From Acidobacteriota bacterium (GTDB lineage Bacteria > Acidobacteriota > Vicinamibacteria > Vicinamibacterales > UBA2999): DNA of 64,000 bases. Made by a program: the position numbers and the translations under genes. Under the pieces are notes generated by a model, which saw only the letters and a list, made by a program, of their open reading frames with translations, was not told the origin of the DNA and ran no database searches. Of the stretch, positions 30,499 to 49,278 are shown one piece after another; positions within the stretch are counted from its first letter, which is position 1; every line of letters starts with the position of its first letter. The stretch spans positions 67,153-131,152 of the forward strand of contig JAEUQR010000005.1 of the NCBI GenBank assembly GCA_016789705.1, read 5' to 3'.

Positions 30499-30546
30499 TT
30501 GGGCACTCGCGGGGCACGGGGAACGGAACAGGGAAGGGGCACGGCG

Positions 30547-33477
<2,931 letters not shown>

Positions 33478-33561
33478 GCGGGGCTGAGACGTGCCTGGAG
33501 ATTCGAACGATCTTACTGGTGACGGCGAGGACCGTCAAGGAACGGAGCAGGAGGGGAGGGA

Positions 33562-34488
33562 TCAGTCGCCGCCGGTCTGACGCGCGCTCTTGAGGAGGAA
33601 CTGGAGCGGGTTCAGCAACCGGTCGTTGACGCGCACTTCGTAGTGGAGATGCGGAGCCGTGGCGCGCCCGGTGGCGCCGACGCGGCCGATGAGATCGCCG
33701 CGCTTCACCTTGGCGCCGTTCTCGACTTCGAACTTCGAGAGATGGCCGTAGCGCGACTCGAGACCGAAGCCGTGATCGATGCGGATCAGGTTGCCGTAAT
33801 CGCTGTAGGCGCTCGCGTGCACGACGGTGCCGTCGGCCGTGGCGTAGACGGGAGAGCCGCGGTCGGCGGAGATGTCGAGACCTGGGTGGAAATCGGCGCC
33901 GCCCGTGAACGGGTCACGGCGCGCGCCCATCGAGGAGGTGAGCCAGCCGGCGGCCGGCCAGATCGACGGCGTGGCCGCGGCGAGCTTGTTGCGCTTGTCG
34001 ACGCCCGACTGCACGGACTGCAGGCGGCTTTCGAGGCCCTGCAGCAGGTCGCGCAGCAGACCGAAGGTGTCTTCCGGCGAGTTCAGGCTCGGCAGCATCG
34101 CCAGCCCGGCCGCCGTGGTCGTGCCGCCGCCGCCCATGGCGCGCGACTTCACGATGGCGGGCAGCTTGTCCATGGCCGAGCGCAGCGCGGGATCGAGCGC
34201 GGCGCGGCCGCCGAGATCGTCGAGCGCAGTCTGCAGTCCCTGGATCTGGCCGGTCAGTGCTTCCGTCGTATCGCGGTAGCTGGAGAGTTCGAGTTCGAGC
34301 GTCGCATGCGACGCGTAGAGGTCCGCGACGTCGGCCTTGGCCTTCCACGCCGCGCCCATGCCGATGAGCACGGGCAGCGTGACGACGGTGCCGAGCACGA
34401 TCATCGCCGGCCGGAGGCCGACGGTGAATCGCCGGACGACGCCGGTCTGGCGGTCGGCGAGCAGGATCGTGTAGCGCGTAGAGGGCAT
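33562..34488 (-). CDS. membrane-anchored M23 (LytM-type) peptidase
   Basis: Internal ATG (codon 45 of the track ORF). Has a TM helix, a coiled-coil, then HPGLDISA (HxxxD) and APHLHYEV (HxH) metal ligands. Confidence 0.85.
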   Translation of the reverse strand: MPSTRYTILLADRQTGVVRRFTVGLRPAMIVLGTVVTLPVLIGMGAAWKAKADVADLYASHATLELELSSYRDTTEALTGQIQGLQTALDDLGGRAALDPALRSAMDKLPAIVKSRAMGGGGTTTAAGLAMLPSLNSPEDTFGLLRDLLQGLESRLQSVQSGVDKRNKLAAATPSIWPAAGWLTSSMGARRDPFTGGADFHPGLDISADRGSPVYATADGTVVHASAYSDYGNLIRIDHGFGLESRYGHLSKFEVENGAKVKRGDLIGRVGATGRATAPHLHYEVRVNDRLLNPLQFLLKSARQTGGD

Positions 34489-34620
34489 CCGGTTCGTGTG
34501 GGTGGTGCGATGTCGCGCCGGCCCGGCCAGACGCAACCTGAGGAGCATACCACGCGTGCCGGTCGACGTCGGCGATCCGGCGCCTGAGGGGCGAACATAT
34601 GGAGAAAGCGTCCACGCCAC

Positions 34621-36144
34621 TCAGGCCGCGGGCCTCCCCGCCCGGAACTGGAGTGCTTCGAGGAGGTGAGGGGCGGCGATGTCGACGCTGCCGTCGAGAT
34701 CCGCAATCGTGCGGGCGACGCGCAGCGTGCGGTGCACGGCACGGCCGCTGAGCGCGAGGCGGGTCGCAGCGGCGGCGAGGTGCCGGGAGCTCTCACGGTC
34801 GAGCGCCGCCACCCGCCTCAGGGCGGCGGGCGCGAGGCGGCTGTTGAGCGGCGCCCCGGCCTCGAGCGCCCGCGCGCGCTGCACGGCACGCGCCGCCTCC
34901 ACCCGGAGCCGCACCTCGGCCGATGGTTCGGCGGGCGTGGTGGCCGTCAGCGTGTCGAAGGTCACCGGCGAGAGCTCCACCGTGAGGTCGAGCCGATCGC
35001 GCAGCGGTCCGGACACGCGCTCGTGGTACCGGGTGACCGCCATCGGCGTGCAGCGGCACGGCCGTGTCGCCTGGCCCGCGTAGCCGCACGGGCACGGGTT
35101 CATCGCCGCCACGAGCGTGAAGGCGGCGGGGAAGACGACGGTGCCGGACGCGCGGGCGATGCGCACGAGGCCGTCCTCGAGCGGCTGCCGCAGCGCTTCG
35201 AGCGCGCGGCGCCCGAATTCCGGCAGTTCGTCGAGGAAGAGCACGCCGTGATGCGCGAGCGTGATGTCGCCGGGACGCGGCACGCTGCCGCCGCCGACGA
35301 GCGCGGCGTCGGAGGCCGTGTGATGCGGGGCGCGGAAGGGCCGAGCGCCGATGAGGCCCCCGGTGGCGCCGAGCAGTCCCGCCACCGAGTGGATCGCGGT
35401 GACCTCGAGCGCTTCGTCGAACGTGAGCCCGGGAAGCAGGCCCGGCATGCGGCGCGCCAGCAGCGTCTTGCCGGCGCCGGGCGGGCCGACGAAGAGCATG
35501 TGGTGCCCGCCGGCGGCGGCGATCTCGAGGGCTCGGCGGGCCGCCGCCTGCCCGCGCACGTCCGCGAGGTCGGCTGCGGGATCCGGGCTCGGGGCCACCG
35601 TGGCGTGGGGCCGCGCGCGCGGCCACGCGGCGTCCGGTTCGTGCAGGCGCGCCACGGCGTCGGCCAGGGTGGCAATCGGCACGACGGCGAGGTCGTCCAC
35701 GACCGCGGCTTCGGCGGCGTTCGCCGCCGGCAGGAGGAGCGCCTGCACGCCCTGCCGCCTGAGGCCCATGGCGAGCGGCAGCACGCCGCGCGTGGGCAGC
35801 ACGGCGCCGTCGAGCGAGAGTTCGCCCACGATGGCGACCCGCGCCGGGTCGTGCCGCGGCACCAGGCCAGAGGCCGCCAGAATCGCGATGGCAATCGGCA
35901 GGTCGAAGGCGGCACCGGCCTTGCGGACGTCCGCCGGCGCGAGATTGACGGTGATTCGGTGGGAGGGGAACTCGAAGCCGGAATTCCTGATCGCCGCCCG
36001 CACGCGGTCGCGGCTCTCGCGCACGCTCGCATCGGGCAGCCCCACCATCGCGAAGACCGGCAATCCGAACGAGACATCCACTTCCACCGACACGGGGAAC
36101 GCGTCGATGCCGCGCAGCGCGGCACTCTGCACCTGGGACAACAT
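34621..36144 (-). CDS. comM: YifB/ComM-family Mg-chelatase-like AAA+ protein
   Basis: MLSQVQSAALRGIDAFPV...VGLPDASVRESRDRV N-terminal Lon-like domain, GPPGAGKT, and a C-terminal Mg_chelatase_C pattern. Confidence 0.9.
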   Translation of the reverse strand: MLSQVQSAALRGIDAFPVSVEVDVSFGLPVFAMVGLPDASVRESRDRVRAAIRNSGFEFPSHRITVNLAPADVRKAGAAFDLPIAIAILAASGLVPRHDPARVAIVGELSLDGAVLPTRGVLPLAMGLRRQGVQALLLPAANAAEAAVVDDLAVVPIATLADAVARLHEPDAAWPRARPHATVAPSPDPAADLADVRGQAAARRALEIAAAGGHHMLFVGPPGAGKTLLARRMPGLLPGLTFDEALEVTAIHSVAGLLGATGGLIGARPFRAPHHTASDAALVGGGSVPRPGDITLAHHGVLFLDELPEFGRRALEALRQPLEDGLVRIARASGTVVFPAAFTLVAAMNPCPCGYAGQATRPCRCTPMAVTRYHERVSGPLRDRLDLTVELSPVTFDTLTATTPAEPSAEVRLRVEAARAVQRARALEAGAPLNSRLAPAALRRVAALDRESSRHLAAAATRLALSGRAVHRTLRVARTIADLDGSVDIAAPHLLEALQFRAGRPAA

Positions 36145-36290
36145 CACCAGGGAGACGTCCAAGGACGATGCCAGCCGGGCGCGCGCCGGAATTCGGCCCG
36201 CCAGCGGCACCTCGTGGATGACCACACGCTGGAAGTGCGTACGAAGACGACGGTGACCCGCGGAGATTCTGCGGCGGGTGCCGCCTCCCG

Positions 36291-37979
36291 CTACTGGGCG
36301 TTGGCGCTGCGCACCGTCTGGATCTGCAGGCGGTCGCCGATCGAGAGCGCCGAGCCCTTGAGGTGGTTCCAGGCGCGCAGGTTCTCGACGCTCACGCCAT
36401 GACGGCGGGCGATCGAGTAGAGCGTGTCGCCCTTGCGCACGCGGTAGACGGTGCGCGTCGCCTCGGCCTCACGCGGTTCGGCCTCCGCGGCCGCCACGCG
36501 CGTGGCGACGGCAGGCGCGTTCGCGCGGCCAGCAAGCAGCGCCGCCGACGGCGCGCGCGGCACGACCAGGCGCTGCCCGGGCTGCACCCGCGCCGTGGTG
36601 TTCAGGTAGTTCGCTTCCGCGAGATCGGCGCGCGAGACCCGCAGGCGCCGCGCGATCGTCGGCAGCGACTCGCCTTTGCGCACGGTGTACCACTGCAGGG
36701 CGGCGGCATCCCCTGGTGCGGCGCCCGCGTACCCCTCGAGCACCGAGGCCATCGTGCCCATCGGCACCCGCAGCTGGTAATCGCGCGAGCGCACGGGCGT
36801 CGTCCAGCGGCGCAGTTCGGGGTTCAGCGCGCGGATGTCGTCGGCCGGCACGCCGGCCCACTCCGCCACGTTGCGCAGGTCCACCGGCCCCGACACGGTC
36901 ACGACGTCGGGCGCGAAGGGCAGCGTCGAGGGAATCTCGAAGCCGTACTGCGCCGGGTTACGGGCGATGATGGCGGCCGCGAGGATCATCGGCACGTAGT
37001 CGCGCGTCTCGCGCGGCAGATGTTTCGACGACTCGGAGAGCTCCCAGAAGTTGTCGATGCCGGTGCGCTTCACGGCGCGCTGCACGCGCCCGGGGCCGCC
37101 GTTGTAGGACGCGATCGCCAGGTGCCAGTCGCCGAACATCCGGTGCAGCGCCTTCAGGTATTTCGCCGCCGCGCGGGTGGCCTTCTCCGGATCCGCGCGT
37201 TCGTCGATGTACCAGTCGCTGCGCAGGCCGTATTCCTTCCCGGTGGGCCGCATGAACTGCCAGACGCCGCGGGCGCTCGCGCGCGACAGGGCCGTCGTCT
37301 TGAACCCGCTCTCGACCAGGGGCACGAAGGCCAGGTCGAGGGGCAGCCCTTCCTCGCGGAAGACCGTGTGGATCATGGGGAGGAAGGGCCCGCCGCGCGT
37401 CAGCCCGTCCGTGAGGAACGGACGCAGCCGTCCCTGGAAGATCTCGACGAACCGCAGCACGCGGTCGTTGAGGGGGATCGGGATGTCGTGGGTCGTGGTG
37501 GCGAGATCGGCACGCACGGCAGTGGCCACCTCCGGCGCCGGCGAGGCGTCGGCCTCGGCGGGTGGCAGCGACAGCAGCGTGTCGATCGATGCTGGCTCGG
37601 TGGCCGTTTCCGTGAAACCGTCACCGCTCGACAGCGTGGCCAGCTCGAGGGCGCTGATGCGGTCGGTGAGGGCATCGACCGCAGCCGACAGGCGCGGGTC
37701 CGAGCGGGCGCCGCCGGGCATCACGAGCAGCGTGTCGAGGGCCAGGTCGAATGCGAGTCGGGCGTCTTTCAGATGCCCCTGCTGGCTGGCGGCGCGGCCG
37801 GCCTCGAACGCGGCTTCGGCGGTGGCAACGGCCTGCGCCACGGGGTCGACGGGCGCGGGTGGCTGCGCAACGGGCGGCGCGGGCGCGGCCTGCACGGGGG
37901 CCGTCGCGACCGGAGCCGGCGTACGGGAGGCACAAGCCGAGGCCCCAACGAGCAGGAAGAGCAGACCGACGCGTCGCAT
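36291..37979 (-). CDS. lipoprotein lytic transglycosylase with C-terminal LysM repeats (MltD-like)
   Basis: Lipobox LLVGASAC, an SLT catalytic region (VPLVESGFK...ARGVWQFM), and three LysM-like repeats (YTVRKGESLPTIARRL..., YRVRKGDTLYSIARRH...). Confidence 0.85.
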   Translation of the reverse strand: MRRVGLLFLLVGASACASRTPAPVATAPVQAAPAPPVAQPPAPVDPVAQAVATAEAAFEAGRAASQQGHLKDARLAFDLALDTLLVMPGGARSDPRLSAAVDALTDRISALELATLSSGDGFTETATEPASIDTLLSLPPAEADASPAPEVATAVRADLATTTHDIPIPLNDRVLRFVEIFQGRLRPFLTDGLTRGGPFLPMIHTVFREEGLPLDLAFVPLVESGFKTTALSRASARGVWQFMRPTGKEYGLRSDWYIDERADPEKATRAAAKYLKALHRMFGDWHLAIASYNGGPGRVQRAVKRTGIDNFWELSESSKHLPRETRDYVPMILAAAIIARNPAQYGFEIPSTLPFAPDVVTVSGPVDLRNVAEWAGVPADDIRALNPELRRWTTPVRSRDYQLRVPMGTMASVLEGYAGAAPGDAAALQWYTVRKGESLPTIARRLRVSRADLAEANYLNTTARVQPGQRLVVPRAPSAALLAGRANAPAVATRVAAAEAEPREAEATRTVYRVRKGDTLYSIARRHGVSVENLRAWNHLKGSALSIGDRLQIQTVRSANAQ

Positions 37980-38073
37980 GCCGTCCGAAGGTCAGACGCT
38001 AGCACGCCGGGCGTGGCCGGTCAAACCGTGCCGGGACGCGCCGGCCTGTCCGTCCCCGCCGGCGTGCGGTCGC

Positions 38074-39843
38074 TCACCGGGCCGCGCCGTCGAGCCAGAC
38101 GAGGACCTCGAAGGCGGCTCCGGCATCGCGTGCGGCGGGCGTCACGATGGTGCGCGGGCCGACGAGGATCGTCCGGCCCTCGCGGGCGGCGCGGCGCACG
38201 TCATCCTCGCAGACGAAGTCGGCCGGCGGACCCGCCGACACAGGGTCGAGCCGCGCCGGCGGAGGCGACGGAGCACCCCGCGCCGCAAGCACCCGGTCCA
38301 GACCCGCGCGGACGGCCTCGGCCGGCACGGCCTCGGGCGCCGCGGGCTGAGGCGCGCGTGGGAGCGGCGGCAGCGACGCGGCGACCGGGCCAGCGGCCGA
38401 CGCCGGGGCGCCCGCGGAAGCCATGACCGGTGCGCGGCTCGCGCCGCGTGGCCGCAGTTCCCAGGCCAGCCGCTTGATGTTCAGCAGGTGGCGCGGCGAG
38501 ATGTTGTCAGAGGTGATGTTACCGCCGTAGCCGCCGCAGCCGAGCGTCATCGCCGGGTCGAGTCCGGTCGTCAGCCCGATCGAACCGTGCGTCGTCGGCG
38601 TATTCACCACGATGCGAAAAGCCGGTTTGTGCAGGCCGAACTCGAGGATGACGGCCTCGTTGCGCGAGTGGATGGACATCGTGTGGCCCATCCCGCCGTA
38701 CTGGAGAACCTGCCGGGCCCGCTCGCAGCCCTCCCGCCAGTCCGCAACCTCGTAATAGGAGAGTACCGGGCAGAGCTTCTCAATCGACAGCGGATGCTCG
38801 CGGCCCACGCCCGCGAGCGGCACGATGAGCGCGCGCGTGCCGGCCGGCACCTGGAGCCCGATGGTCCCGGCGATGTGCACGGCCGACTTGCCGACGAGCG
38901 CCGGGTTCGGCAGGCGTTCCGCCGTGACCAGGGCGGCCTGCAGCGTCGCGGCCGCGGCCGCGTCGAGGAAGTGGCCGCCGCCGGCCACGAGCGCGGCGCG
39001 CAACGCCGGCGCCACGGCGCGGTCGACGACGATCGAATTCGGCGACGAGCAGAGCACGCCGTTGTCGAATGACTTGCCGGCGAGGATGTCGTCGGCGGCC
39101 TTGGCGACATCGGCCGATGACTCGACGTAGCAGGGCGCGTTGCCCGGCCCGACGCCGTAGGCGGGTTTGCCGGCGGAATACGCGGCGCGCACCAGCCCCA
39201 GTCCGCCGGTTGCGAGAATCACGGCGATATCCCGCGCGCGCATCAGTTCCCGTGTGCCGTGCAGCGTTACGGTCGTGAGCCAGGCGATCGCGCCCTCGGG
39301 CAATCCCGTCTCGCGGGCAGCGTCATTCAGCAGGGTCGCCGTGTGCGTGATGCAGCGGGCGGCCGACGGGTGCGGACTGAGCACGACGCCGCACCGGGCC
39401 TTGATGCTGATGAGCAGCTTGTAGATGGCCGTCGACGTCGGGTTGGTGGACGGCACGATGGCAGCGACCACGCCAAACGGCTCCGCGATTTCGACGATCT
39501 TCCGGTCCTCGTGCCGCGCGACGACGCCCACCGTGCGCATCGGCCGGATGAACGCGTGCACGTCGCGGGCGGCGAACAGGTTCTTGGCGACTTTGTCGGC
39601 GACGACGCCGTAGCCGGTTTCTTCGACCGCGAGGCGGGCGAGCGGCTCGGCGTGGGCTTCGGCCACGGCGGCCATACGGGCGACGATGGCGTCGATTTGG
39701 GCCTGGGAGAACTCGGCGAGGAGACGCTGGGCGGCCCGGGCCCGGCGTGCGAGCGCCAGGGCCTCGGCCGCCGACGCCAGGTCACGGTCGGTCAGGTTCG
39801 GGGGGGCTGCGGGCGCCGATGCGCCGGACGCGGAGCTCGCCAC
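38074..39843 (-). CDS. CoA-acylating aldehyde dehydrogenase with 124-aa C-terminal extension
   Basis: The ALDH fold covers residues ~20-465, with GPGNAP and the active-site block GKSFDNGVLCSSPNS (Cys265), which looks AdhE-N/SucD-like. GTG start lies 6 nt after the BMC-H stop. The extension spans residues 466-589. Confidence 0.85.
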   Translation of the reverse strand: MASSASGASAPAAPPNLTDRDLASAAEALALARRARAAQRLLAEFSQAQIDAIVARMAAVAEAHAEPLARLAVEETGYGVVADKVAKNLFAARDVHAFIRPMRTVGVVARHEDRKIVEIAEPFGVVAAIVPSTNPTSTAIYKLLISIKARCGVVLSPHPSAARCITHTATLLNDAARETGLPEGAIAWLTTVTLHGTRELMRARDIAVILATGGLGLVRAAYSAGKPAYGVGPGNAPCYVESSADVAKAADDILAGKSFDNGVLCSSPNSIVVDRAVAPALRAALVAGGGHFLDAAAAATLQAALVTAERLPNPALVGKSAVHIAGTIGLQVPAGTRALIVPLAGVGREHPLSIEKLCPVLSYYEVADWREGCERARQVLQYGGMGHTMSIHSRNEAVILEFGLHKPAFRIVVNTPTTHGSIGLTTGLDPAMTLGCGGYGGNITSDNISPRHLLNIKRLAWELRPRGASRAPVMASAGAPASAAGPVAASLPPLPRAPQPAAPEAVPAEAVRAGLDRVLAARGAPSPPPARLDPVSAGPPADFVCEDDVRRAAREGRTILVGPRTIVTPAARDAGAAFEVLVWLDGAAR

Positions 39844-39849
39844 GGCGGG

Positions 39850-40128
39850 CTATCCCTTCGGGAGGATCTTCTCGACGTCGGCGTGGGGCCGGGGAATGAC
39901 GTGCACCGACACCAGTTCGCCCACCCGGCGGGCCGCGGCCGCACCGGCATCCGTGGCCGCTTTCACGGCGCCGACGTCGCCTCGCACCATGACCGTGACG
40001 TAGGCGGCGCCGATGTACTCGGTGCCGACCAGCACGACATTGGCGGCTTTCACCATGGCATCGGCGGCTTCGACCGAACCGATGAAGCCACGCGTCTCGA
40101 CCATGCCCAGAGCGCCTTGTGTATCCAT
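39850..40128 (-). CDS. bacterial microcompartment shell protein, BMC-H (PduA/EutM-like)
   Basis: 93 aa: [92 protein letters not shown]. It is collinear with PduA over essentially the full length. The start is the internal ATG of track ORF 39850..40227. Confidence 0.92.
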
Positions 40129-40215
40129 GTGCGAACACGGCGGGTGCCGTACGGCGCGGAACTGTACCACAAACCTCTGCCGGCGCGGTGGCGCCGACCC
40201 GCCGTAGGCGCTATC

Positions 40216-41127
40216 ATGTTGCTTCACAAGACTATGTACAACTTCAAGACCATCCGCCCGGCCCTCGCGATCGTGATCGCGCTCGGCCTCGCGGCCGCCG
40301 GTTGCGGCGGCCAGGAAGACACCGCGCCCGCACAGGGCACGCTGACCGTCCAGCTCAGCCGCTCGCGCATCGCCCTCGGCAGCCCCGTCGAGGTCACCTA
40401 CAAGTTCGTCGTCGCGGCCGACGCCGGTTCACTCGGCAACCGCAAGGCCTTCGTTCATTTTCTCGACGCCGACGGCGAGCAGATGTGGACTGACGACCAC
40501 GAGCCGCCCACCCCGACCGCGGGCTGGAAGCCGGGCCAGACGATCGAATACACCCGCACCGTCTTCGCGCCGGTGTACCCGTATGTCGGGCCGGCGAAGA
40601 TCGTGGCCGGCCTCTACGACACGACCTCGGGCGAGCGCCTGAAGCTCTCGGGCACCGAGGCCGGCGGCCGCGCTTACGCGGTGGCCCAGTTCGAGTTGCT
40701 GCCGCAGACCGCGAACGTGTTCCTCATCTTCAAGGACGGCTGGCACGCCGTCGAAGCCGCGGCCGATAACTCCATGGTGGAGTGGCAGTGGACGAAGAAG
40801 GAAGCGACGCTCGCGTTCAGGAATCCCCGGCGCGACTCCACGCTCTACTTCCAGGCCGACAACCCGGGCAAGGCGGCCACCGCCGCGACCCAGGTCGAAA
40901 TCCGGCTGGGTGACCAGGTGATCGAGACGGTCAAGCTCGTGGCCGATGGTCCGGTGCACAAGATTGCCCTGCCGGCGGCGGCGCTCGGCGCCGGCGACAT
41001 GGTGGAGCTCCGGCTGGTGGTCGATCAGACGTTCGTCCCGGCCCTCGAGCCCGGCGCGGCGTCCAACGATCCACGGGAACTCGGCGCCCGCGTGTTCCAC
41101 GCCTTCGTGCAGCCGCAGGGGTCGTAG
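40216..41127 (+). CDS. lipoprotein of unknown function, first gene of the filament operon
   Basis: ATG40216 or ATG40234. Lipobox LGLAAAGC, a beta-rich body, and no recognisable family. Ends 12 nt before the GspF/PilC gene. Confidence 0.5.
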
Positions 41128-41139
41128 CGCCACCAGATC

Positions 41140-42342
41140 ATGGAGTTTCGCTGCAGGCTCGGCACCGCGGCAGGGCAGGTCATCGAGGGCGTGTATGTCG
41201 CCCCGAGTGAGGCCCACCTGCGCCGCGAGCTCGAAGACAAGGGCCTGCATGTGCTCGCCCTGGCGCCGCGCGGCGGCGTGCAGGGGCTTTCGATCGGCCG
41301 CCGGAAGATCCGCCGCGACGAGTTCCTGATCTTCAACCAGGAACTGGCCACGCTGCTCAAGGCCGGCATGCCGCTCGTGCAGTCGCTCGACATCCTGCGC
41401 CAGCGCCTCACGAATCCGGTGTTCAAGGCCGTGCTCGACGACGTGCACGAGAAGGTGCGCGGCGGCACGGCGCTCTCCGATGCGTTCACCGCCCACGCGG
41501 ACTTGTTTCCCGGCGTCTACACCGCGTCGCTCGTGGCCGGCGAACGCAGCGGCTCGCTCGACACGGTGCTGCGGCGCTTCGTGACCTACTCGAAGGTCAT
41601 CGACACCGTCCGCAAGAAGACCTTCTCGGCGATGCTCTATCCGGCCATCCTCACCGTGCTCGCGGTGGTGCTCGTCGCCATCATCGTGGTGAAGGTGGTG
41701 CCGGCCTTCTCGGGCTTCTACGAGAGCTTCGATCAGGAACTGCCGCTCATCACGCGGCTGATCGTCGCCGTCTCGGACGTGGTGCGTGCGAATCTGCTCG
41801 TGCTCACCGCGATCCTCGTCGGCGGCGCCGTGTTCTTCGCCGCCTGGGTGAAACGGCCCGGCCAGCGGGCGCGCTTCGATCGGCTGCTGCTGAGCCTGCC
41901 GGTGGTGGGTGCCATCGCCCACAAGTTCGCCACCTCGCAGATTGCCCGCACGCTCGCCGCGCTCGTCGGCGGCGGCATTCCGCTCGTGAACGCGCTCGAT
42001 ACCGCCTCGACCTCGACCGGCAACCGGTATCTCGGCGATGAACTCCGCGTGGTGGCCGAACGCGTGCGCGAGGGCCGCGGCTTCGCCCAGACGCTGCTCG
42101 AGCGCCGGGTGATGCCGGATGTGGCCATCAAGATGATCGAAGTGGGCGAGTCGACCGGCGCGCTGCAGGAGATGCTGACGTCGCTCGCCGATTTCTACGA
42201 CGAAGACGTCGAAACCGAGGTGAGCCGCTTCGTCACGCTCGTCGAGCCGGTGATGCTCGTGTTCATGGGCGTGGTGATCGCCGGCGTGGTGCTGGCGCTC
42301 TACATGCCGCTCTTCCAGTTATCGACCGTGGTCGGTCGCTAG
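41140..42342 (+). CDS. type IV filament platform protein (GspF/PilC family)
   Basis: 400 aa with two T2SSF repeats (FNQELATLLKAGMPLVQSL; IARTLAALVGGGIPLVNAL) and three TM segments. Confidence 0.9.
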   Translation: MEFRCRLGTAAGQVIEGVYVAPSEAHLRRELEDKGLHVLALAPRGGVQGLSIGRRKIRRDEFLIFNQELATLLKAGMPLVQSLDILRQRLTNPVFKAVLDDVHEKVRGGTALSDAFTAHADLFPGVYTASLVAGERSGSLDTVLRRFVTYSKVIDTVRKKTFSAMLYPAILTVLAVVLVAIIVVKVVPAFSGFYESFDQELPLITRLIVAVSDVVRANLLVLTAILVGGAVFFAAWVKRPGQRARFDRLLLSLPVVGAIAHKFATSQIARTLAALVGGGIPLVNALDTASTSTGNRYLGDELRVVAERVREGRGFAQTLLERRVMPDVAIKMIEVGESTGALQEMLTSLADFYDEDVETEVSRFVTLVEPVMLVFMGVVIAGVVLALYMPLFQLSTVVGR

Positions 42343-42355
42343 GATTCCGCACCCG

Positions 42356-44004
<1,649 letters not shown>

Positions 44005-44008
<4 letters not shown>

Positions 44009-44952
44009 GTCTTCCGGCGTTCCTGCAGCAAGCCCCGCCCACCGTGGCCGTGGACCTGGCGCCCGAGCGTGTGGCCGTCGTCCGCGTCGAGCGGCGTGGC
44101 GGCACCGCCGCGATTGCCGCGCACGGCGTCGAGCCGCTGCCGCCCGGGGCGATCACCGGCGCGCTCGCCTCGCCGAACATGCCCGACGTGGCGGCCGTGG
44201 CGGCGGCCATCGGCCGCGCCCTCGCCACGGCCGGTGCGCGCGCGACGCGCGTGTCGCTCGTCGTGCCCGACACCATCGCGCGCGTGAGCCTCGTGCGCTT
44301 CGAATCGGTGCCGGCCAAGATCGCGGATCTCGACGAGCTGATTCGCTGGCAGGTGAAGAAGACCACGCCGTTCCCGCTCGACGAGGCCGTCATCGGCTAC
44401 ACGCCGGGGCAGTCGTCGCCCGGCGCCGTCGAGTTCGTCGTGACGGTGGCGCGGCGCGATGTCATCGAGCAGTACGAAGGCGCCTGTGAACTGGCGGGCG
44501 CGCACGCCGGCATCGTCGATCTGGCCACCTTCAACGTGGTGAACGCGGTGCTCGCGCCGGCGGGTGCCGTCACCGGCGACTGGCTGCTCGTCCACGCCGC
44601 CCCGTCGTATGTGAGCCTCGCAGTGCTGCGCGATGGCCATCTCATCTTCTATCGCACGCGTGGCGAAGAGTCGGAGGGGTCGGTGGCCGACCTCGTGCAC
44701 CAGACGGCGATGTACTACGAAGATCGCCTGCAGGGGCAGCGGTTCGGCCGCGTGCTCCTCTCGGGCGGCTCGACCGTCGCCGGCGCCGACCACCTGCGCC
44801 GCGAGCTCTCCGAACGGCTGGGGCTCGAGGTGGCGCCGGTCGATCCCTTCCACGCGGCGTCGCCGGCGGCGAGGCTGGGGGCGTCGCCGTCGCTGGCCGA
44901 CGCGCTGGCGCCGGGCATCGGCATCCTGCTCCGGGAAAAGGCGGCGTCGTGA
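44005..44952 (+). CDS. pilM: PilM-like actin-fold assembly protein
   Basis: 315 aa with a PilM-type pattern (VAVDLAPERVAVV..., LIRWQVKK..PFPLDEAV, VDLATFNVVNA). ATGA overlap with the ATPase gene. Confidence 0.8.
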
Positions 44953-45581
44953 TGCTGAAGGGTAATCTCGCGACCCGTCCCTTCTACAACGAGCGTCTCG
45001 TACGCGGCGCGCTCGTCGTCGCGCTGGCGGTGGCGGTGCTGTGGGCGGCGCTCAACGTCATCACGCTCGTGAGCCTGTCGCAGCAGAGCACCATGCTGAG
45101 CGACCGTATCCGCAACGAAGGGCTCCGCGCCTCGGGCGCACGCACCGAGGCCGACACGGTGCGGCGCGGCCTGAACGCGGCGGACCTGCAGCGGGTGTCC
45201 GGCGCGGCCACCGAAGCCAACGCGCTCATCGAGCGGCGTACCTTCTCGTGGACCGGGCTCTTCAACCAGCTCGAGACCACGCTCCCGGCCGACGTGCGGC
45301 TCGTGGAAGTGCAGCCGCAGAGCGACGACAGCGGGCGTCTCATCCTGTCGCTCACGGTGGTGTCGCGGAAGATCGAGGACCTCGACGAGTTCATCCGCGG
45401 CCTCGAGGCCACGGGCGCGTTCTCGGGGGTCGTCTCGCGCTCCGACGAGGCCCTCGACGACGGCTCCATCGCCTCGACCCTCCAGGGTTACTACGCCCTG
45501 GCGGCCAGGCCGGCCGTCGCGGCGTCTGAACCTTCGAACGTGTCCGTGACGCCCCCGCGGACGCCGGAGGTGCCCCGATGA
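44949..45581 (+). CDS. pilN: PilN-like bitopic inner-membrane protein
   Basis: NLATRPFYNER N-terminal motif, a single TM helix, a coiled-coil, and a ferredoxin-like C-terminus. GTGA overlap with pilM. Confidence 0.75.
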   Translation: MMLKGNLATRPFYNERLVRGALVVALAVAVLWAALNVITLVSLSQQSTMLSDRIRNEGLRASGARTEADTVRRGLNAADLQRVSGAATEANALIERRTFSWTGLFNQLETTLPADVRLVEVQPQSDDSGRLILSLTVVSRKIEDLDEFIRGLEATGAFSGVVSRSDEALDDGSIASTLQGYYALAARPAVAASEPSNVSVTPPRTPEVPR

Positions 45582-46168
45582 CCGCCAGCCGCGGTTCACT
45601 CGTCCGCCGCGTGCTCCGGGAGCACCGCGCGTGGATCTGGCCGCTCGCCGTACTGCTCGGGCTGAACGTGCTGGCGCTGATGCTCGGCATCCTGCCGATG
45701 TCGCGGGCGGTCGCGTCGGCGGAAACGCGGGCCACGACGGCCGCGGCCGATGCGGCGGCGGCGGCGGCGGAACTGGCAGCCGCGGCGGCTGCCCGCGACG
45801 GACGTGACACGGCCACCCGCGAGCTCGCGACCTTTCACGCCGACGTCCTGCCCGCAGGGGTGGCCGAGGCGCGCCGCCTGCTGCAGCTCAAGGTGGCGCA
45901 GCTCGCCCGCGCCCACGACGTCACCTTCGCCCGCAGCGTGGCCTCGCCCGAGTCGATCCGCGGCAGCGACCTCGCGCGCCTTCAGGCGAGCATCGAACTC
46001 GTCGGCCGCTATCGCGATGTCCGGCAGTTCCTCTACGAACTGGAGACGTCGAAGGACTTCGTCATCGTCGATTCGATCGTGCTCTCGGAAGGGGAGGACG
46101 CCGCGGCGCCGCTCAACCTGACGATCGTGCTCTCCACGTACTTCAAGGCGGTGCCGGATGCCCGCTGA
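45578..46168 (+). CDS. PilO/GspM-like bitopic inner-membrane protein
   Basis: One TM helix, an Ala-rich coiled-coil, and a C-terminal VGRYRDVRQFLYELETSKDFVIVDSI pattern. ATGA overlap with pilN. Confidence 0.6.
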   Translation: MTASRGSLVRRVLREHRAWIWPLAVLLGLNVLALMLGILPMSRAVASAETRATTAAADAAAAAAELAAAAAARDGRDTATRELATFHADVLPAGVAEARRLLQLKVAQLARAHDVTFARSVASPESIRGSDLARLQASIELVGRYRDVRQFLYELETSKDFVIVDSIVLSEGEDAAAPLNLTIVLSTYFKAVPDAR

Positions 46169-46715
46169 GCGGCAGAAGCAGGCGCTCGCGGCGCTGCTGG
46201 CGCTGCTCGTGGTCGTCGGTGTGTGGCAGTACATGGGCGGCGACGGCCCGGCCGCTCCGCAGGCGGCAGTCGCGGCGCGCCGCGCCGCGGCAGCCGAGAT
46301 GCCGGAGCCGCCGGGGGATGTGGCACTCGATGCGCTCGACGGGGGGCGGCTCGGGCCCGCTGACGGCGGCCGCAATCCATTCGTGTTCGGCCTGCGCCAG
46401 GTGACGGCGACCGATGATGGCGCGCGCCGGCCCGTCACGCGGCGGCCGGTGATGCCCGACACGGCGCCGGTGATGGCGCCGCCGGGGCCGCCGCCGCTGC
46501 CGCCGATCCCGTTCAAGTTCATCGGGCTCGTGGAAGGCACCGCCGGCACGAAGAAGATTGCCGTGCTCAGCGATTCCAAGGGGCTCGTGGTGCACGGCTC
46601 CGAAGGGGCTATCATCGACGGGCGATTCCGGATCCTGTCCATCGGAACCGAGTCGATCGACATCGCGTATGCCGACGGGCGTGGCCGCCAGACGTTGCGG
46701 CTGACCGGGCAGTAG
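46158..46715 (+). CDS. PilP/GspC-like periplasmic linker protein
   Basis: N-terminal TM helix, a Pro-rich linker, and a C-terminal beta module (FKFIGLVEG...KIAVLSD....V..GS.IDGRFRILSIG.ESIDI). Overlaps the previous gene by 11 nt. Confidence 0.45.
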   Translation: MPAERQKQALAALLALLVVVGVWQYMGGDGPAAPQAAVAARRAAAAEMPEPPGDVALDALDGGRLGPADGGRNPFVFGLRQVTATDDGARRPVTRRPVMPDTAPVMAPPGPPPLPPIPFKFIGLVEGTAGTKKIAVLSDSKGLVVHGSEGAIIDGRFRILSIGTESIDIAYADGRGRQTLRLTGQ

Positions 46716-46734
46716 CAGGACAACGGGAGAACGC

Positions 46735-49278
46735 GTGGCGAGATCAGGGATGCTGAAGGCCGTCGCCCTCGTGCTGGCCCTCGTGGTCGTGGCGGGCTGC
46801 GGCGCGAGTCGCTCCTACCGGCGCGGTCAGCAGGCGGCGAATGCCCAGCAGTTCGACGAGGCGGTGGAGCACTACCGGCAGGCGCTGCAGGGCTCGCCAG
46901 ACAAGCCGGAATACAAGATCGCGCTCGAACGGGCGATGCAGGCGGCGGCGACGTTTCACGTGGCGCGGGGACGCGCCTTCGAAACCGAAGGCCGCGGCGA
47001 CGAGGCCCTGCGCGAGTACCGCAAGGCGATGGAGTACGACCCGTCGAACCGGTCGGTCGCGGCGCGCGCCGGCGAACTCGACCGCGAGCTGAGAGATCGG
47101 CTCGAGGCCAGCCGCCCACGGCCGGCGATTGAATCGATGCGCGAGCAGGCGCGCCGCAACTCGCAGGAGCCGGTGCTCAACCCGACGTCGAAGGAGCCGC
47201 TCAACCTGCGCTTCTCGAACACGAGCCTGCGCGACCTGCTCAACTTCATCGGCAGTTCGACCGGGATCAACGTCACCTACGACCGCGACTTCCAGGACCG
47301 CAGCGTCACCGTGCAGCTCGAGGGTGTGACCCTCAACGAGGCGCTGCAGCAGGTGATGATGACGAACCAGATCTTCTACAAGGTGCTGAACGAACGCACG
47401 ATCATCATCGCCACCGACAACACGGCCAAGCGCCAGCAGTACGAGGAGCAGGTCATCAAGACCTTCTTCATCTCCCACGCCGACGCGGTGGAACTGGCGC
47501 AGCTCGTGAACACGGTGATTCTGGCGCCGCAGATGGCGATTCAGCCGCGCATCGCGCCGAACAAGACCGCCAACACGCTCACCGTGCGCGCCGCCGCGCC
47601 GGTGATGGAGATCATCGAGCAGGTCATCAAGATCAACGACAAGCCGCGCGCCGAGGTCATCGTCGACGTGCAGATCCTCGAGGTCAGCCGCGAGCGCGCC
47701 AAACGTTTCGGCCTGAACCTGACCGACTACGCGCTCGGCGGCATCTTCTCGCCCGAGCAGGCGCCCGGCGGCAGCTCCACCACCGCCGGCACGGGGGGGG
47801 CGGCAACGACCACGACCAGTGGCGGTGCGACTGCGCCGTCGAACGTCGGCTCGCCGCCGGTCTTCAACGCCAACACCATCTCCACCGGAGTCAGCGCGGC
47901 CGACTTCTATCTCGCCGTGCCGGCCGCCATCGTGCGGTTCCTCGAGAGCGACTCGCAGACCAAGACGGTGGCCAAGCCGCAGCTGCGTGGCACCGAAGGG
48001 CAGAAGGTCACGCTGAACCTCGGTGAAGAAGTGCCGGTGCCGAGCACCACGTTCACGCCGCTCGCGCAGGGGGGCGCCAACGCCAACCCGCTCACGTCCT
48101 TCACGTATCGCCCGATTGGCGTCATCGTCGAGATGACGCCGCGGGTGACCTACGAGGGCGACATCGTGATGGATCTCACCCTCGAGAACAGCGCGCGCGG
48201 GCAGGATTCGAACATCGCCGGTCAGTCGCTGCCGGCGTTCGCGTCGCGCAAGGTGACGACGCGGCTGCGGCTGCGCGACGGCGAATCGAATCTGCTGGCC
48301 GGGCTGCTGCGCGAAGACGAGCGGCGCGCCCTGCGCGGCTTTCCGGGCATCATGCGCCTGCCGCTCCTGCAGCAGCTCTTCGCCGACAACGACTCGAACA
48401 TCCGCCAGACCGACATCGTGATGCTGCTCACGCCGCGCATCGTGCGCTCGCACCAGCTCACCTCGTCGGACCTGAGCCCGATCTACATCGGCACGCAGGC
48501 CAACATGGCCGTGGGTGGTCCGCCGCCGGTCTTCGGCGGCAACGGCGCCGCGGCGCCGCCGCCGGCGCCGCAGCCTCAGGCGGCGGCACCGGCCGCGCCC
48601 GCCGCGACGCCGGCGGCCACGACACCGGCCGGACAGCAGGTACCGCCGGGGAGCTCGGCGACGCCCGGCTTCACCGCCGCGCCGGCCGCACCTGCCGCAC
48701 CCGCGCAGACGCCGCCCAACCCGTTCCAGTTCCTGACGCCCACGACGCCACCGGCCGCCGAGCCCACGGAGCCCGCCGCGGCGCCAGCCGTGCCGCCGCC
48801 GCAACAGGCCGGTGGCCAGCCGGCGCCGGTGAATCCCTTCGCGCCGCCGGCTGCGCAGACGCCGGCCACGGTGCTCGTGAGTCCGCCGGGCACGGAGTTC
48901 CGCACCGGCGGCGGACCCTATCTCGTGCCGATCTCGATCTCGAACGCGTCGCGACTCTCGACGGTCTCGATTTCGCTCTCATACAACCCCGCGGTCCTGC
49001 GGGTCCGCACCGTGCAGGAAGGCAATCTCATGCGCCAGGGCGGCGCGCAGGCGGCCTTCACGCAGAAGATCGATGCCGCCGCCGGACGCGTGGACATCGC
49101 CGTCGTGCGGCCGGGCGACGTGCTCGGCGCCTCGGGCACGGGTGTCGTCGGTGCCGTGCTCTTCGAGGCGGTGGGTGCCGGACAGTCTCCGCTGTCGCTG
49201 TCGGGCGTGGGCACGCTTGCCGGCGGGGGCGGCGCGGCGCCGTTCCAGTTCCAGCCGGTGACGGTGACGGTCAAGTAG
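46735..49278 (+). CDS. secretin (GspD/PilQ family) with lipobox, N-terminal TPR region and C-terminal cohesin-like module
   Basis: LVVVAGC lipobox, TPR-like repeats, N-domains, and a secretin core (GFPGIMRLPLLQQLF...VMLLTPRIV). A 120-aa Pro/Ala linker (48505-48864) and a 137-aa beta-rich module (48865-49275) follow. Confidence 0.85.
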   Translation: MARSGMLKAVALVLALVVVAGCGASRSYRRGQQAANAQQFDEAVEHYRQALQGSPDKPEYKIALERAMQAAATFHVARGRAFETEGRGDEALREYRKAMEYDPSNRSVAARAGELDRELRDRLEASRPRPAIESMREQARRNSQEPVLNPTSKEPLNLRFSNTSLRDLLNFIGSSTGINVTYDRDFQDRSVTVQLEGVTLNEALQQVMMTNQIFYKVLNERTIIIATDNTAKRQQYEEQVIKTFFISHADAVELAQLVNTVILAPQMAIQPRIAPNKTANTLTVRAAAPVMEIIEQVIKINDKPRAEVIVDVQILEVSRERAKRFGLNLTDYALGGIFSPEQAPGGSSTTAGTGGAATTTTSGGATAPSNVGSPPVFNANTISTGVSAADFYLAVPAAIVRFLESDSQTKTVAKPQLRGTEGQKVTLNLGEEVPVPSTTFTPLAQGGANANPLTSFTYRPIGVIVEMTPRVTYEGDIVMDLTLENSARGQDSNIAGQSLPAFASRKVTTRLRLRDGESNLLAGLLREDERRALRGFPGIMRLPLLQQLFADNDSNIRQTDIVMLLTPRIVRSHQLTSSDLSPIYIGTQANMAVGGPPPVFGGNGAAAPPPAPQPQAAAPAAPAATPAATTPAGQQVPPGSSATPGFTAAPAAPAAPAQTPPNPFQFLTPTTPPAAEPTEPAAAPAVPPPQQAGGQPAPVNPFAPPAAQTPATVLVSPPGTEFRTGGGPYLVPISISNASRLSTVSISLSYNPAVLRVRTVQEGNLMRQGGAQAAFTQKIDAAAGRVDIAVVRPGDVLGASGTGVVGAVLFEAVGAGQSPLSLSGVGTLAGGGGAAPFQFQPVTVTVK

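What the first reader, a model, noticed from the sequence alone, without database searches (positions are those of the whole stretch)
38077..38448. Tripartite C-terminal extension on the aldehyde dehydrogenase: linker, amphipathic helix, linker, 48-aa terminal module
The ALDH fold ends near ...NISPRHLLNIKRLAWELRP (residue ~465). It is followed by three parts.

1. An Ala/Pro-rich linker of about 40 aa.
2. A short segment, AEAVRAGLDRVLAARG (residues 508-523, nt 38275-38322), with i/i+3/i+4 hydrophobic spacing.
3. A second Pro-rich linker and then DFVCEDDVRRAAREGRTILVGPRTIVTPAARDAGAAFEVLVWLD (residues 542-585, within nt 38077-38220).

Part 2 has the size, amphipathic character and linker-flanked placement of BMC encapsulation peptides. 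Part 3 follows the pattern [hydrophobic]xxxDVR...G..I.V....I[VI]TPxARD. I recall this pattern from the N-termini of EutT-type and other BMC-associated proteins, but that is from memory and unverified. An ALDH carrying both elements at its C-terminus would be an unusual cargo-targeting architecture.
Basis: inference. Interest (0 to 1): 0.55.

Follow-up and report, generated by a model that had tools for sequence, protein, structure and literature searches.

The report
Microcompartment-targeting tail on aldehyde dehydrogenase
The aldehyde dehydrogenase next to a microcompartment shell gene does carry a linker-helix-linker-small-domain tail, but this tail was already noted for the Acidobacteria "ACI" microcompartment family; what is new here is that the small end domain resembles the shell-binding end of EutQ.

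Summary
ORF 38074-39843 (-) encodes a 589-aa acylating aldehyde dehydrogenase (ALDH) directly downstream of a BMC-H shell gene. After the catalytic core (1-465) come a Pro/Ala linker, a predicted helix (509-523), a second linker and a confidently folded β-α-β-β-α-β module (542-585).

The architecture is not new. Sutter et al. 2021 (Supplementary Data 2) describe the ACI (Acidobacteria) microcompartment ALDH. [quoted passage not shown] At least 470 species genomes, nearly all Acidobacteriota, encode the module. In 63 of 80 loci it is fused in frame to a full ALDH core. BMC-H lies just upstream in 68 of 70.

New here: the module resembles the N-termini of EutQ and EutT and the C-terminus of PduM (hhalign probability 95%, score 38 against at most 16 for shuffles). 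It also has the same predicted secondary-structure order as EutQ 1-48. EutQ residues 9-41 bind the Eut shell, and loss of PduM partly separates shell from core. I therefore infer that the module tethers the ALDH to the shell. This is untested.

The feature is known; the domain assignment is a modest new lead.

The parts
39850..40128 (-). BMC-H shell protein gene (92 aa from MDTQG...). Its stop codon lies 6 nt upstream of the ALDH start.
   Evidence: PF00936, 97 bits; EutM NCBIfam, 126 bits. 65% identical to E. coli EutM. It is the only BMC-H in the window and there is no BMC-P.
38449..39843 (-). Catalytic core of the acylating aldehyde dehydrogenase, residues 1-465. The catalytic Cys lies in GVLCSS, residues 262-267.
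   Evidence: TIGR02518 EutH_ACDH, 541 bits, residues 19-464; PF00171.
38323..38448 (-). Linker 1, residues 466-507, Ala/Pro-rich. Contains LPPLPRAPQP (residues 491-500, nt 38344-38373).
   Evidence: No family match. Length and sequence vary among orthologues, but an LP[KRQ]xP motif is present in 39 of 70.
38275..38322 (-). Encapsulation-peptide-like helix, residues 508-523 (AEAVRAGLDRVLAARG).
   Evidence: AF2 helix at 509-523. It sits at the position of the orthologues' consensus I.A..L..RID.FLA.RG. Sutter 2021 calls this an EP.
38221..38274 (-). Linker 2, residues 524-541, Pro-rich.
   Evidence: pLDDT below 50-70 in the AF2 model. Variable in orthologues.
38077..38220 (-). Terminal module, residues 542-589 (folded core 542-585), followed by stop codon 38074-38076.
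   Evidence: pLDDT about 95, β-α-β-β-α-β. 11 invariant columns. 715 representatives, with the module at or within about 60 residues of the C-terminal end. hhalign 95% to EutQ-N/EutT-N/PduM-C.

Best explanation
This is the satellite-locus aldehyde dehydrogenase of an ACI-type (Acidobacteria) bacterial microcompartment. It is co-transcribed with a BMC-H shell protein.

Its C-terminal tail is the enzyme's encapsulation apparatus. A flexible Pro/Ala linker leads to a short encapsulation-peptide helix, then a second linker, then a 45-aa β-α-β-β-α-β domain.

Shown: the architecture, its conservation, its linkage to BMC-H, the predicted fold, and a sequence/profile resemblance of the domain to the N-terminal 45 residues of EutQ and EutT and the C-terminal 45 residues of PduM.

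Inferred: the domain is a protein-protein interaction module that docks on the shell, as reported for EutQ residues 9-41, while the helix engages the cargo core. On this reading the ALDH is both cargo and shell-core tether in a microcompartment type that has no separate EutQ or PduM.
For: Family and locus:
- The ALDH is type I (TIGR02518/IPR013357 class), the class with C-terminal EPs (Sutter 2021 main text).
- The ACI description matches point by point: ALDH on a satellite locus, EP near the C-terminus, then a ~50-aa unknown domain.
- The window has one BMC-H and no BMC-P.
- All relatives are Acidobacteriota. The closest ALDHs are 78-82% identical.

Conservation:
- 63 of 80 loci have the module fused in frame to a full ALDH core. 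68 of 70 have BMC-H directly upstream.

Resemblance to EutQ, EutT and PduM:
- It hits PduM residues 129-157 at E=4e-4.
- hhalign against the three together gives 95.3% probability and score 38.1. Shuffles give 8.4 +/- 2.1, maximum 16.2.
- Per family the probabilities are 65-79%, each well above its shuffles.
- An AF2 model of EutQ 1-53 has the same element order and spacing as the module.

Functional precedent:
- EutQ H1/H2 (residues 9-41) binds the shell proteins EutM/EutL, and deleting it separates shell from cargo (PMC12487888).
- The EutQ N-terminus is needed for EutM pull-down (PMC4827028).
- PduM carries an N-terminal signal sequence, and its loss partly separates core and shell (PMC12108088).
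- Two orthologues (L028, L056) keep the module but have no helix. The module is therefore not merely an appendage of the EP.
Against: - The homology rests on thin alignments (Neff about 1.2-2.5). Single-family probabilities are only 65-79%.
- PduM-C does not match EutQ-N or EutT-N directly (2% and 0.1%).
- I chose the three comparison proteins after seeing the motif.
- There is no significant match in Pfam, NCBIfam, PDB sequences or PDB folds.
- The ACI-invariant FVCEDDVR acidic/Cys motif is absent from EutQ, EutT and PduM, so the binding partner may differ.
- No interaction was or could be modelled here.
- EutT's N-terminus has no shown shell-binding role.
- The loci were collected with the module as query, so 'always present' is biased.
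Confidence: 0.5

Rival explanations
1. The module is a cargo-cargo interaction or oligomerisation domain. It binds encapsulation peptides or other copies of itself and drives condensation of the enzyme core. It does not bind the shell.
For: PduM localises to the microcompartment core (PMC12108088). EutQ's N-terminal region also contains EP-binding elements, H3/H4. ALDH is an oligomer (established knowledge of the ALDH family, not tested here), so a self-associating tail would crosslink cargo. Some orthologues carry two EP helices plus the module.
Against: The module aligns to EutQ residues 4-43, the H1/H2 region. NMR showed no EP binding in residues 2-62. It does not align to H3/H4.
Confidence: 0.2
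2. The resemblance to EutQ, EutT and PduM is a chance or convergent short motif (h-I-T-x-x-D-h-R ... I-h-T-P-x-A-R-D). On this reading the domain is an Acidobacteria-specific domain whose role is unrelated to theirs.
For: HMM E-values against single proteins are marginal (0.011, 1.5, 4e-4 at proteome scale). PduM does not match EutQ or EutT directly. A weak similar TPAxR motif also appears in E3-binding domains. There are no curated-family hits.
Against: All three matches are to microcompartment proteins, all at a protein terminus, all in register over 29-38 columns. Scores are about 8-10 SD above column shuffles. The predicted secondary-structure order is identical. The JGI pipeline independently names the fragments as EutT.
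Confidence: 0.2
3. The module is a small regulatory or ligand/metal/redox-sensing domain. It uses the invariant Cys and the EDD triad to modulate ALDH activity inside the compartment.
For: C4 is nearly invariant and E5, D6, D7 are invariant. The half-Rossmann-like β-α-β topology gives weak Foldseek hits to dehydrogenase nucleotide-binding folds, all with E>0.5. Sutter et al. note conserved Cys/His proteins and possible metal binding in ACI loci.
Against: A single Cys cannot form a metal site. No significant structural match exists. The related segments occur in the non-enzymatic structural protein PduM and in the assembly region of EutQ.
Confidence: 0.1

Closest known systems
ACI-type BMC satellite-locus aldehyde dehydrogenase (Sutter et al. 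2021, Nat Commun 12:3809, Supplementary Data 2)
   Same: Acidobacteria only. ALDH on a satellite locus with a shell gene. EP close to the C-terminus followed by a ~50-aa domain of unknown function. This matches the window feature exactly.
   Different: Nothing structural differs. The catalogue leaves the 50-aa domain unassigned. Here it is linked to the EutQ, EutT and PduM termini.
Type I BMC aldehyde dehydrogenases with a C-terminal encapsulation peptide (EUT2-type EutE, IPR013357/TIGR02518)
   Same: Same ALDH subfamily (541 bits). The C-terminal linker plus helix is placed in the same way.
   Different: The match ends at position 446 of the 488-position model, so the EP regions are not alignable. 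EUT2 enzymes end at the EP, whereas this one continues into a folded domain.
EutQ N-terminal H1/H2 region, residues 9-41 (Salmonella; PMC12487888, PMC4827028)
   Same: About 45 aa at a protein terminus. Same predicted β-α-β-β-α-β order. Shared D-h-R...G...h-V....I-I-T-P-x-A-R-E/D pattern. hhalign probability 79% for this family alone.
   Different: It lies at the N-terminus of a cupin acetate kinase, not the C-terminus of an ALDH. It lacks the ACI-invariant FVCEDD motif. In EutQ the EP-binding helices H3/H4 follow it; here an EP helix precedes it.
PduM (PF15953), structural protein of the Pdu microcompartment
   Same: PduM also combines an EP-like signal sequence (residues 1-23) with a terminal segment matching the module (residues 129-157, E=4e-4; weak PF15953 hits from 7 ACI members). 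Loss of PduM loosens the shell-core connection.
   Different: It is a free-standing 163-aa protein with an about 100-aa middle region that is absent here. It has TAMARD instead of TPAARD. It shows no direct profile match to EutQ or EutT.
EutT N-terminus (E. coli/Salmonella cobalamin adenosyltransferase)
   Same: DFITE..LR...G.EIHL....RLTPSARE aligns over 38 columns (hhalign 65%). JGI names module fragments after EutT.
   Different: No function has been shown for this EutT segment. Pfam does not cover it. My recollection of a Pfam 'Co_AT_N' family could not be tested.

Membership tests
ACI-type BMC satellite aldehyde dehydrogenase | Acylating pfam00171 ALDH of the type I (IPR013357/TIGR02518) branch | tested here: met
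   TIGR02518 at 541 bits is the best NCBIfam hit, though below the 620-bit equivalog cut-off. PF00171 at 93 bits.
ACI-type BMC satellite aldehyde dehydrogenase | Encoded on a satellite locus: with shell gene(s) but away from the main locus, which has BMC-H plus a BMC-P triplet, an aldolase and a hydroxyacid dehydrogenase | tested here: met
   There is one BMC-H immediately upstream. phmmer found no second BMC-H and no BMC-P in the 64 kb. Neighbours are pilus/secretion, SLT/LysM, ComM, M23 and SecA genes. Other main-locus enzymes were not searched for specifically.
ACI-type BMC satellite aldehyde dehydrogenase | Confined to Acidobacteria | tested here: met
   The window's taxon is not given. 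All named homologues are Acidobacteriota (Vicinamibacterales, Pyrinomonadaceae, Bryobacteraceae and others), apart from a few oddly labelled MAGs. The closest ALDHs are 78-82% identical, and synteny is shared with L001 and L005.
ACI-type BMC satellite aldehyde dehydrogenase | EP near the C-terminus followed by a ~50-aa domain | tested here: met
   Helix at 509-523, then module at 542-585. The same layout is seen in 68 of 70 orthologues.
BMC encapsulation peptide | About 15-20-residue helix joined to the enzyme by a poorly conserved flexible linker at a terminus | tested here: met
   AF2 helix of 15 residues, flanked by low-pLDDT Pro/Ala linkers. Linkers are variable and the helix is conserved across orthologues.
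BMC encapsulation peptide | Amphipathic character | tested here: inconclusive
   The hydrophobic moment is 0.21 against shuffles at 0.30 +/- 0.15. Known EPs (recalled from memory) score 0.23-0.38 on the same scale. Hydrophobic positions at i, i+4, i+7, i+8 are conserved (L..RID.FL).
BMC encapsulation peptide | Sufficient or necessary to target cargo into the compartment | not testable with these tools
   This needs GFP-fusion and deletion experiments.
EutQ-N / EutT-N / PduM-C terminal module (no curated family) | Significant profile-level sequence similarity | tested here: met
   hhalign gives 95.3% for the combined set and 65-79% per family. Shuffled controls reach a score of at most 16.2 against 38.1. 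The alignments are thin and the comparison proteins were chosen by motif, so treat this as probable, not proven.
EutQ-N / EutT-N / PduM-C terminal module (no curated family) | Same fold | tested here: inconclusive
EutQ-N / EutT-N / PduM-C terminal module (no curated family) | Binds shell proteins | not testable with these tools
   This is known only for EutQ. No multimer modelling was available here.
PduM family (PF15953) | Match to the full-length PDU_like profile above the gathering score | tested here: not met
   Only 7 of 91 members gave sub-threshold hits (best E=0.0073). The window protein gave none. It is not a PduM family member and shares at most the terminal segment.

The most novel reading that the evidence does not exclude
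The 45-aa module defines an unrecognised, widespread 'microcompartment tether' domain. It would be shared by EutQ (N-terminus), EutT (N-terminus), PduM (C-terminus) and the ACI aldehyde dehydrogenase (C-terminus). In ACI organelles the dehydrogenase itself would then be the shell-core linker, replacing a dedicated EutQ/PduM-type protein. That would give PduM its first relatives outside Pdu systems; PduM was described in 2025 as having no known homologues outside them.
Probability: 0.35. Interest if true: 0.55.

Novelty: already known. Interest (0 to 1): 0.33.

Why it matters
The feature itself is a catalogued property of ACI-type microcompartments, which are common in soil Acidobacteria and whose function is still unknown.

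The useful addition is a testable assignment for the '~50-aa domain of unknown function'. If it is the same module as EutQ's shell-binding H1/H2 region and PduM's C-terminus, three separately studied shell-core linking phenomena (Eut, Pdu, ACI) would share one small domain. That domain could also serve as a compact, genetically fusible shell-docking tag for engineering.

A practical annotation point follows. Dozens of public 45-80-aa ORFs named 'ethanolamine utilization cobalamin adenosyltransferase' or 'hypothetical protein' are severed tails of this ALDH.

Tried and rejected
- Pfam and NCBIfam on residues 466-589 and on the 48-aa module gave no hits. Pfam on 91 homologues gave only weak PF15953 hits. 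Two follow-up scans of 19 members did not recover those hits.
- A PDB sequence search with the module profile found nothing below E=0.6.
- The exhaustive representative search lists only the best 150 hits, all ACI ALDH tails. The roughly 190 weaker hits, where other contexts might appear, could not be seen.
- The third homology search, with EutQ/EutT/PduM termini, returned only near-identical enterobacterial fragments. The family profiles stayed thin.
- Idea: the module also exists as a free-standing small gene, or is joined by programmed frameshifting. This was prompted by many 45-80-aa hits and by 4-nt overlaps in L001-L003. Rejected for three reasons. Those contigs have many broken genes. 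The frame switches fall at different places in the GC-rich linkers. Among 80 species genomes, every non-fused case is either a contig-end truncation (8) or a frameshift in an 'MFD' MAG (9), while 63 are intact. That MFD assemblies are long-read is my own knowledge.
- The hydrophobic moment does not discriminate as an EP test.
- P0092, the top hit, is a 4767-aa repeat protein matching through 32 copies of ITEDDVINAAEAG. It is spurious.

Full report
1. WHAT IS THERE

The window is about 70% G+C. ORF 38074..39843 on the minus strand is a single open frame of 589 codons.

Residues 19-464 match the acetylating acetaldehyde dehydrogenase model TIGR02518 (541 bits) and PF00171. Nothing in Pfam or NCBIfam covers residues 466-589.

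Six nucleotides upstream, on the same strand, a 92-aa BMC-H shell protein ends (39850..40128; PF00936, 97 bits). It is 65% identical to E. coli EutM.

- linker 1 = residues 466-507;
- AEAVRAGLDRVLAARG = residues 508-523 (nt 38275-38322);
- linker 2 = residues 524-541;
- DFVCEDD...VWLD = residues 542-585 (nt 38089-38220).

2. IS IT REAL?

A search with residues 508-589 returned 91 homologues. All were short or partial, and those that carry an organism name are all from Acidobacteria. Many begin inside the ALDH core ('...NITSDNISPRHLLNIKRLAYE...').

A trimmed module alignment (A2, 60 sequences) has 11 invariant columns: F2, E5, D6, D7, V8, R9, A11, T27, P28, A30, R31. Searched exhaustively against 1.84 billion representatives, it found 715 proteins at E<=1e-3 and 523 at E<=1e-10. 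Among the 150 listed, the module lies at or within about 60 residues of the C-terminal end.

AlphaFold2 on residues 508-589 gave mean pLDDT 83. It predicts a helix at 509-523 (pLDDT about 66-81), a low-confidence linker, and a β-α-β-β-α-β module with pLDDT about 95.

The hydrophobic moment of the window's own helix is not above shuffles (0.21 against 0.30 +/- 0.15). The amphipathic label therefore rests on the conserved L..RID.FL spacing in orthologues.

3. CONTEXT ACROSS GENOMES

A scan of one genome per GTDB species found at least 470 genomes encoding the module. Nearly all are Acidobacteriota: Vicinamibacterales, Pyrinomonadaceae, Bryobacteraceae/Solibacteraceae and Terriglobia.

Of the 80 loci retrieved:
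- 63 have the module in the same ORF as a full ALDH core;
- 8 are cut by contig ends;
- 9 are frameshifted, all of them 'MFD' MAGs.

BMC-H lies on the same strand just upstream in 68 of 70 evaluable loci. The window has no second BMC-H and no BMC-P, so this is a satellite locus.

The extension is 22-178 aa long. About 68 of 70 extensions contain at least one EP-like helix. L028 and L056 have none. Several Bryobacteraceae/Solibacteraceae have two.

4. ALREADY DESCRIBED

Sutter et al. [quoted passage not shown] Their main text also notes that type I BMC ALDHs (IPR013357) carry C-terminal EPs.

It is not an unusual one.

5. WHAT THE TERMINAL MODULE RESEMBLES

Databases gave nothing significant:
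- PDB sequences;
- PDB folds;
- Pfam, except sub-threshold PF15953 (PduM) hits from 7 of 91 members (PF15953 = PduM).

About 20 module-only fragments are named 'ethanolamine utilization cobalamin adenosyltransferase' by JGI.

- The module HMM was run without filters against all 18 proteins of the E. coli K-12 eut region. It hit only the N-terminus of EutQ (residues 9-39, E=0.011 for a 4300-protein search space) and of EutT (residues 16-40, E=1.5).
- It matched the C-terminus of PduM (residues 129-157) at E=4e-4. I recalled the PduM sequence from memory. It was validated at 208 bits to PF15953 and by database PduM fragments.
- hhalign of A2 against the three termini aligned together gave 95.3% probability, score 38.1 over 38 columns. 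Two hundred column shuffles gave 8.4 +/- 2.1, with a maximum of 16.2.
- Per family: EutQ-N 79%, PduM-C 77%, EutT-N 65%, each far above its shuffles. EutQ-N against EutT-N gave 74%. PduM-C against EutQ-N or EutT-N was not significant.
- An AF2 model of EutQ 1-53 (pLDDT 91) has elements E3-5, H7-15, E20-24, E28-30, H32-41, E44-48. This is the same order and spacing as the module.

I regard common ancestry as probable but not proven. The profiles are thin, and I picked the comparison proteins because of the motif.

6. HOW IT PROBABLY WORKS

In Salmonella, EutQ residues 1-99 suffice to target GFP to Eut compartments. H1/H2 (residues 9-41) associates with the shell (EutM/EutL), and H3/H4 binds cargo EPs. 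Deleting residues 9-41 separates shells from cargo (PMC12487888).

Earlier pull-downs needed the EutQ N-terminus and EutM residues K53, D57 and Q64 (PMC4827028). The window's BMC-H keeps K53 and D57, although these residues are conserved across EutM homologues and so prove little.

PduM has an N-terminal signal sequence, localises to the core, and its loss partly uncouples core and shell. It was described as having no homologues outside Pdu systems (PMC12108088).

By analogy, the ACI ALDH tail combines a core-engaging EP helix with a shell-docking module. This would make the enzyme its own tether. That step is an inference, and no interaction could be modelled here.

The rivals are cargo-cargo crosslinking, chance or convergent motif similarity, and a regulatory Cys/acidic site. 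They are weighed in the rival explanations.

7. VERDICT

The architecture is already in the literature, and this window holds an ordinary member of it. The only new element is the proposed link of the unknown 50-aa domain to the EutQ, EutT and PduM termini. That link is a modest but testable lead.

Noticed in passing
public proteins P0066, P0079, P0228, P0232 and others; loci L001-L005: Dozens of 45-80-aa public ORFs, named 'hypothetical protein' or 'ethanolamine utilization cobalamin adenosyltransferase', are the ALDH's terminal module. They were severed by contig ends or by frameshifts in the GC-rich Pro/Ala linker. This is an annotation artefact, not a stand-alone gene.
   Followed up: yes
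window 38344-38373 (residues 491-500, LPPLPRAPQP): A semi-conserved LP[KRQ]xP motif sits in linker 1, a few residues upstream of the EP helix, in 39 of 70 orthologues. Its role is unknown.
   Followed up: partly
L024, L034, L043, L044, L051 (two helices); L028 and L056 (none): The number of EP-like helices varies among orthologues. Bryobacteraceae/Solibacteraceae carry two in tandem. Two loci have only a 22-30-aa linker before the module. L028 also lacks the adjacent BMC-H while keeping the downstream synteny.
   Followed up: partly
window about 30500-47000; L001, L005, L028: Synteny around the satellite locus is conserved: type IV pilus/T2SS genes (PilB/PilC-like), BMC-H, ALDH, SLT/LysM transglycosylase, ComM-like Mg-chelatase ATPase, M23 peptidase, SecA. 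None of these neighbours has an evident microcompartment role.
   Followed up: no
L004 6447-9517: In a Pyrinomonadaceae MAG, the ALDH is followed by a BMC-P, an ACT-domain protein, unknown small proteins, a DUF711 protein and a BMC-H fragment. This is a larger satellite or main-locus arrangement than in the window.
   Followed up: no
P0092 (top hit): A 4767-aa repeat/adhesin-like protein scored best against the module profile, through 32 repeats of ITEDDVINAAEAGQDI. This is a spurious repeat-summed match.
   Followed up: yes
window 39850-40128: The BMC-H is 65% identical to E. coli EutM. It retains K53 and D57, two of the three EutM residues reported as required for EutQ binding; Q64 is Arg.
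   Followed up: partly
window 36363-39072 (+) and elsewhere: Very long antisense ORFs (for example 687 aa and 631 aa) overlap the real genes. This is the usual artefact of about 70% G+C DNA and is not evidence of genes.
   Followed up: no
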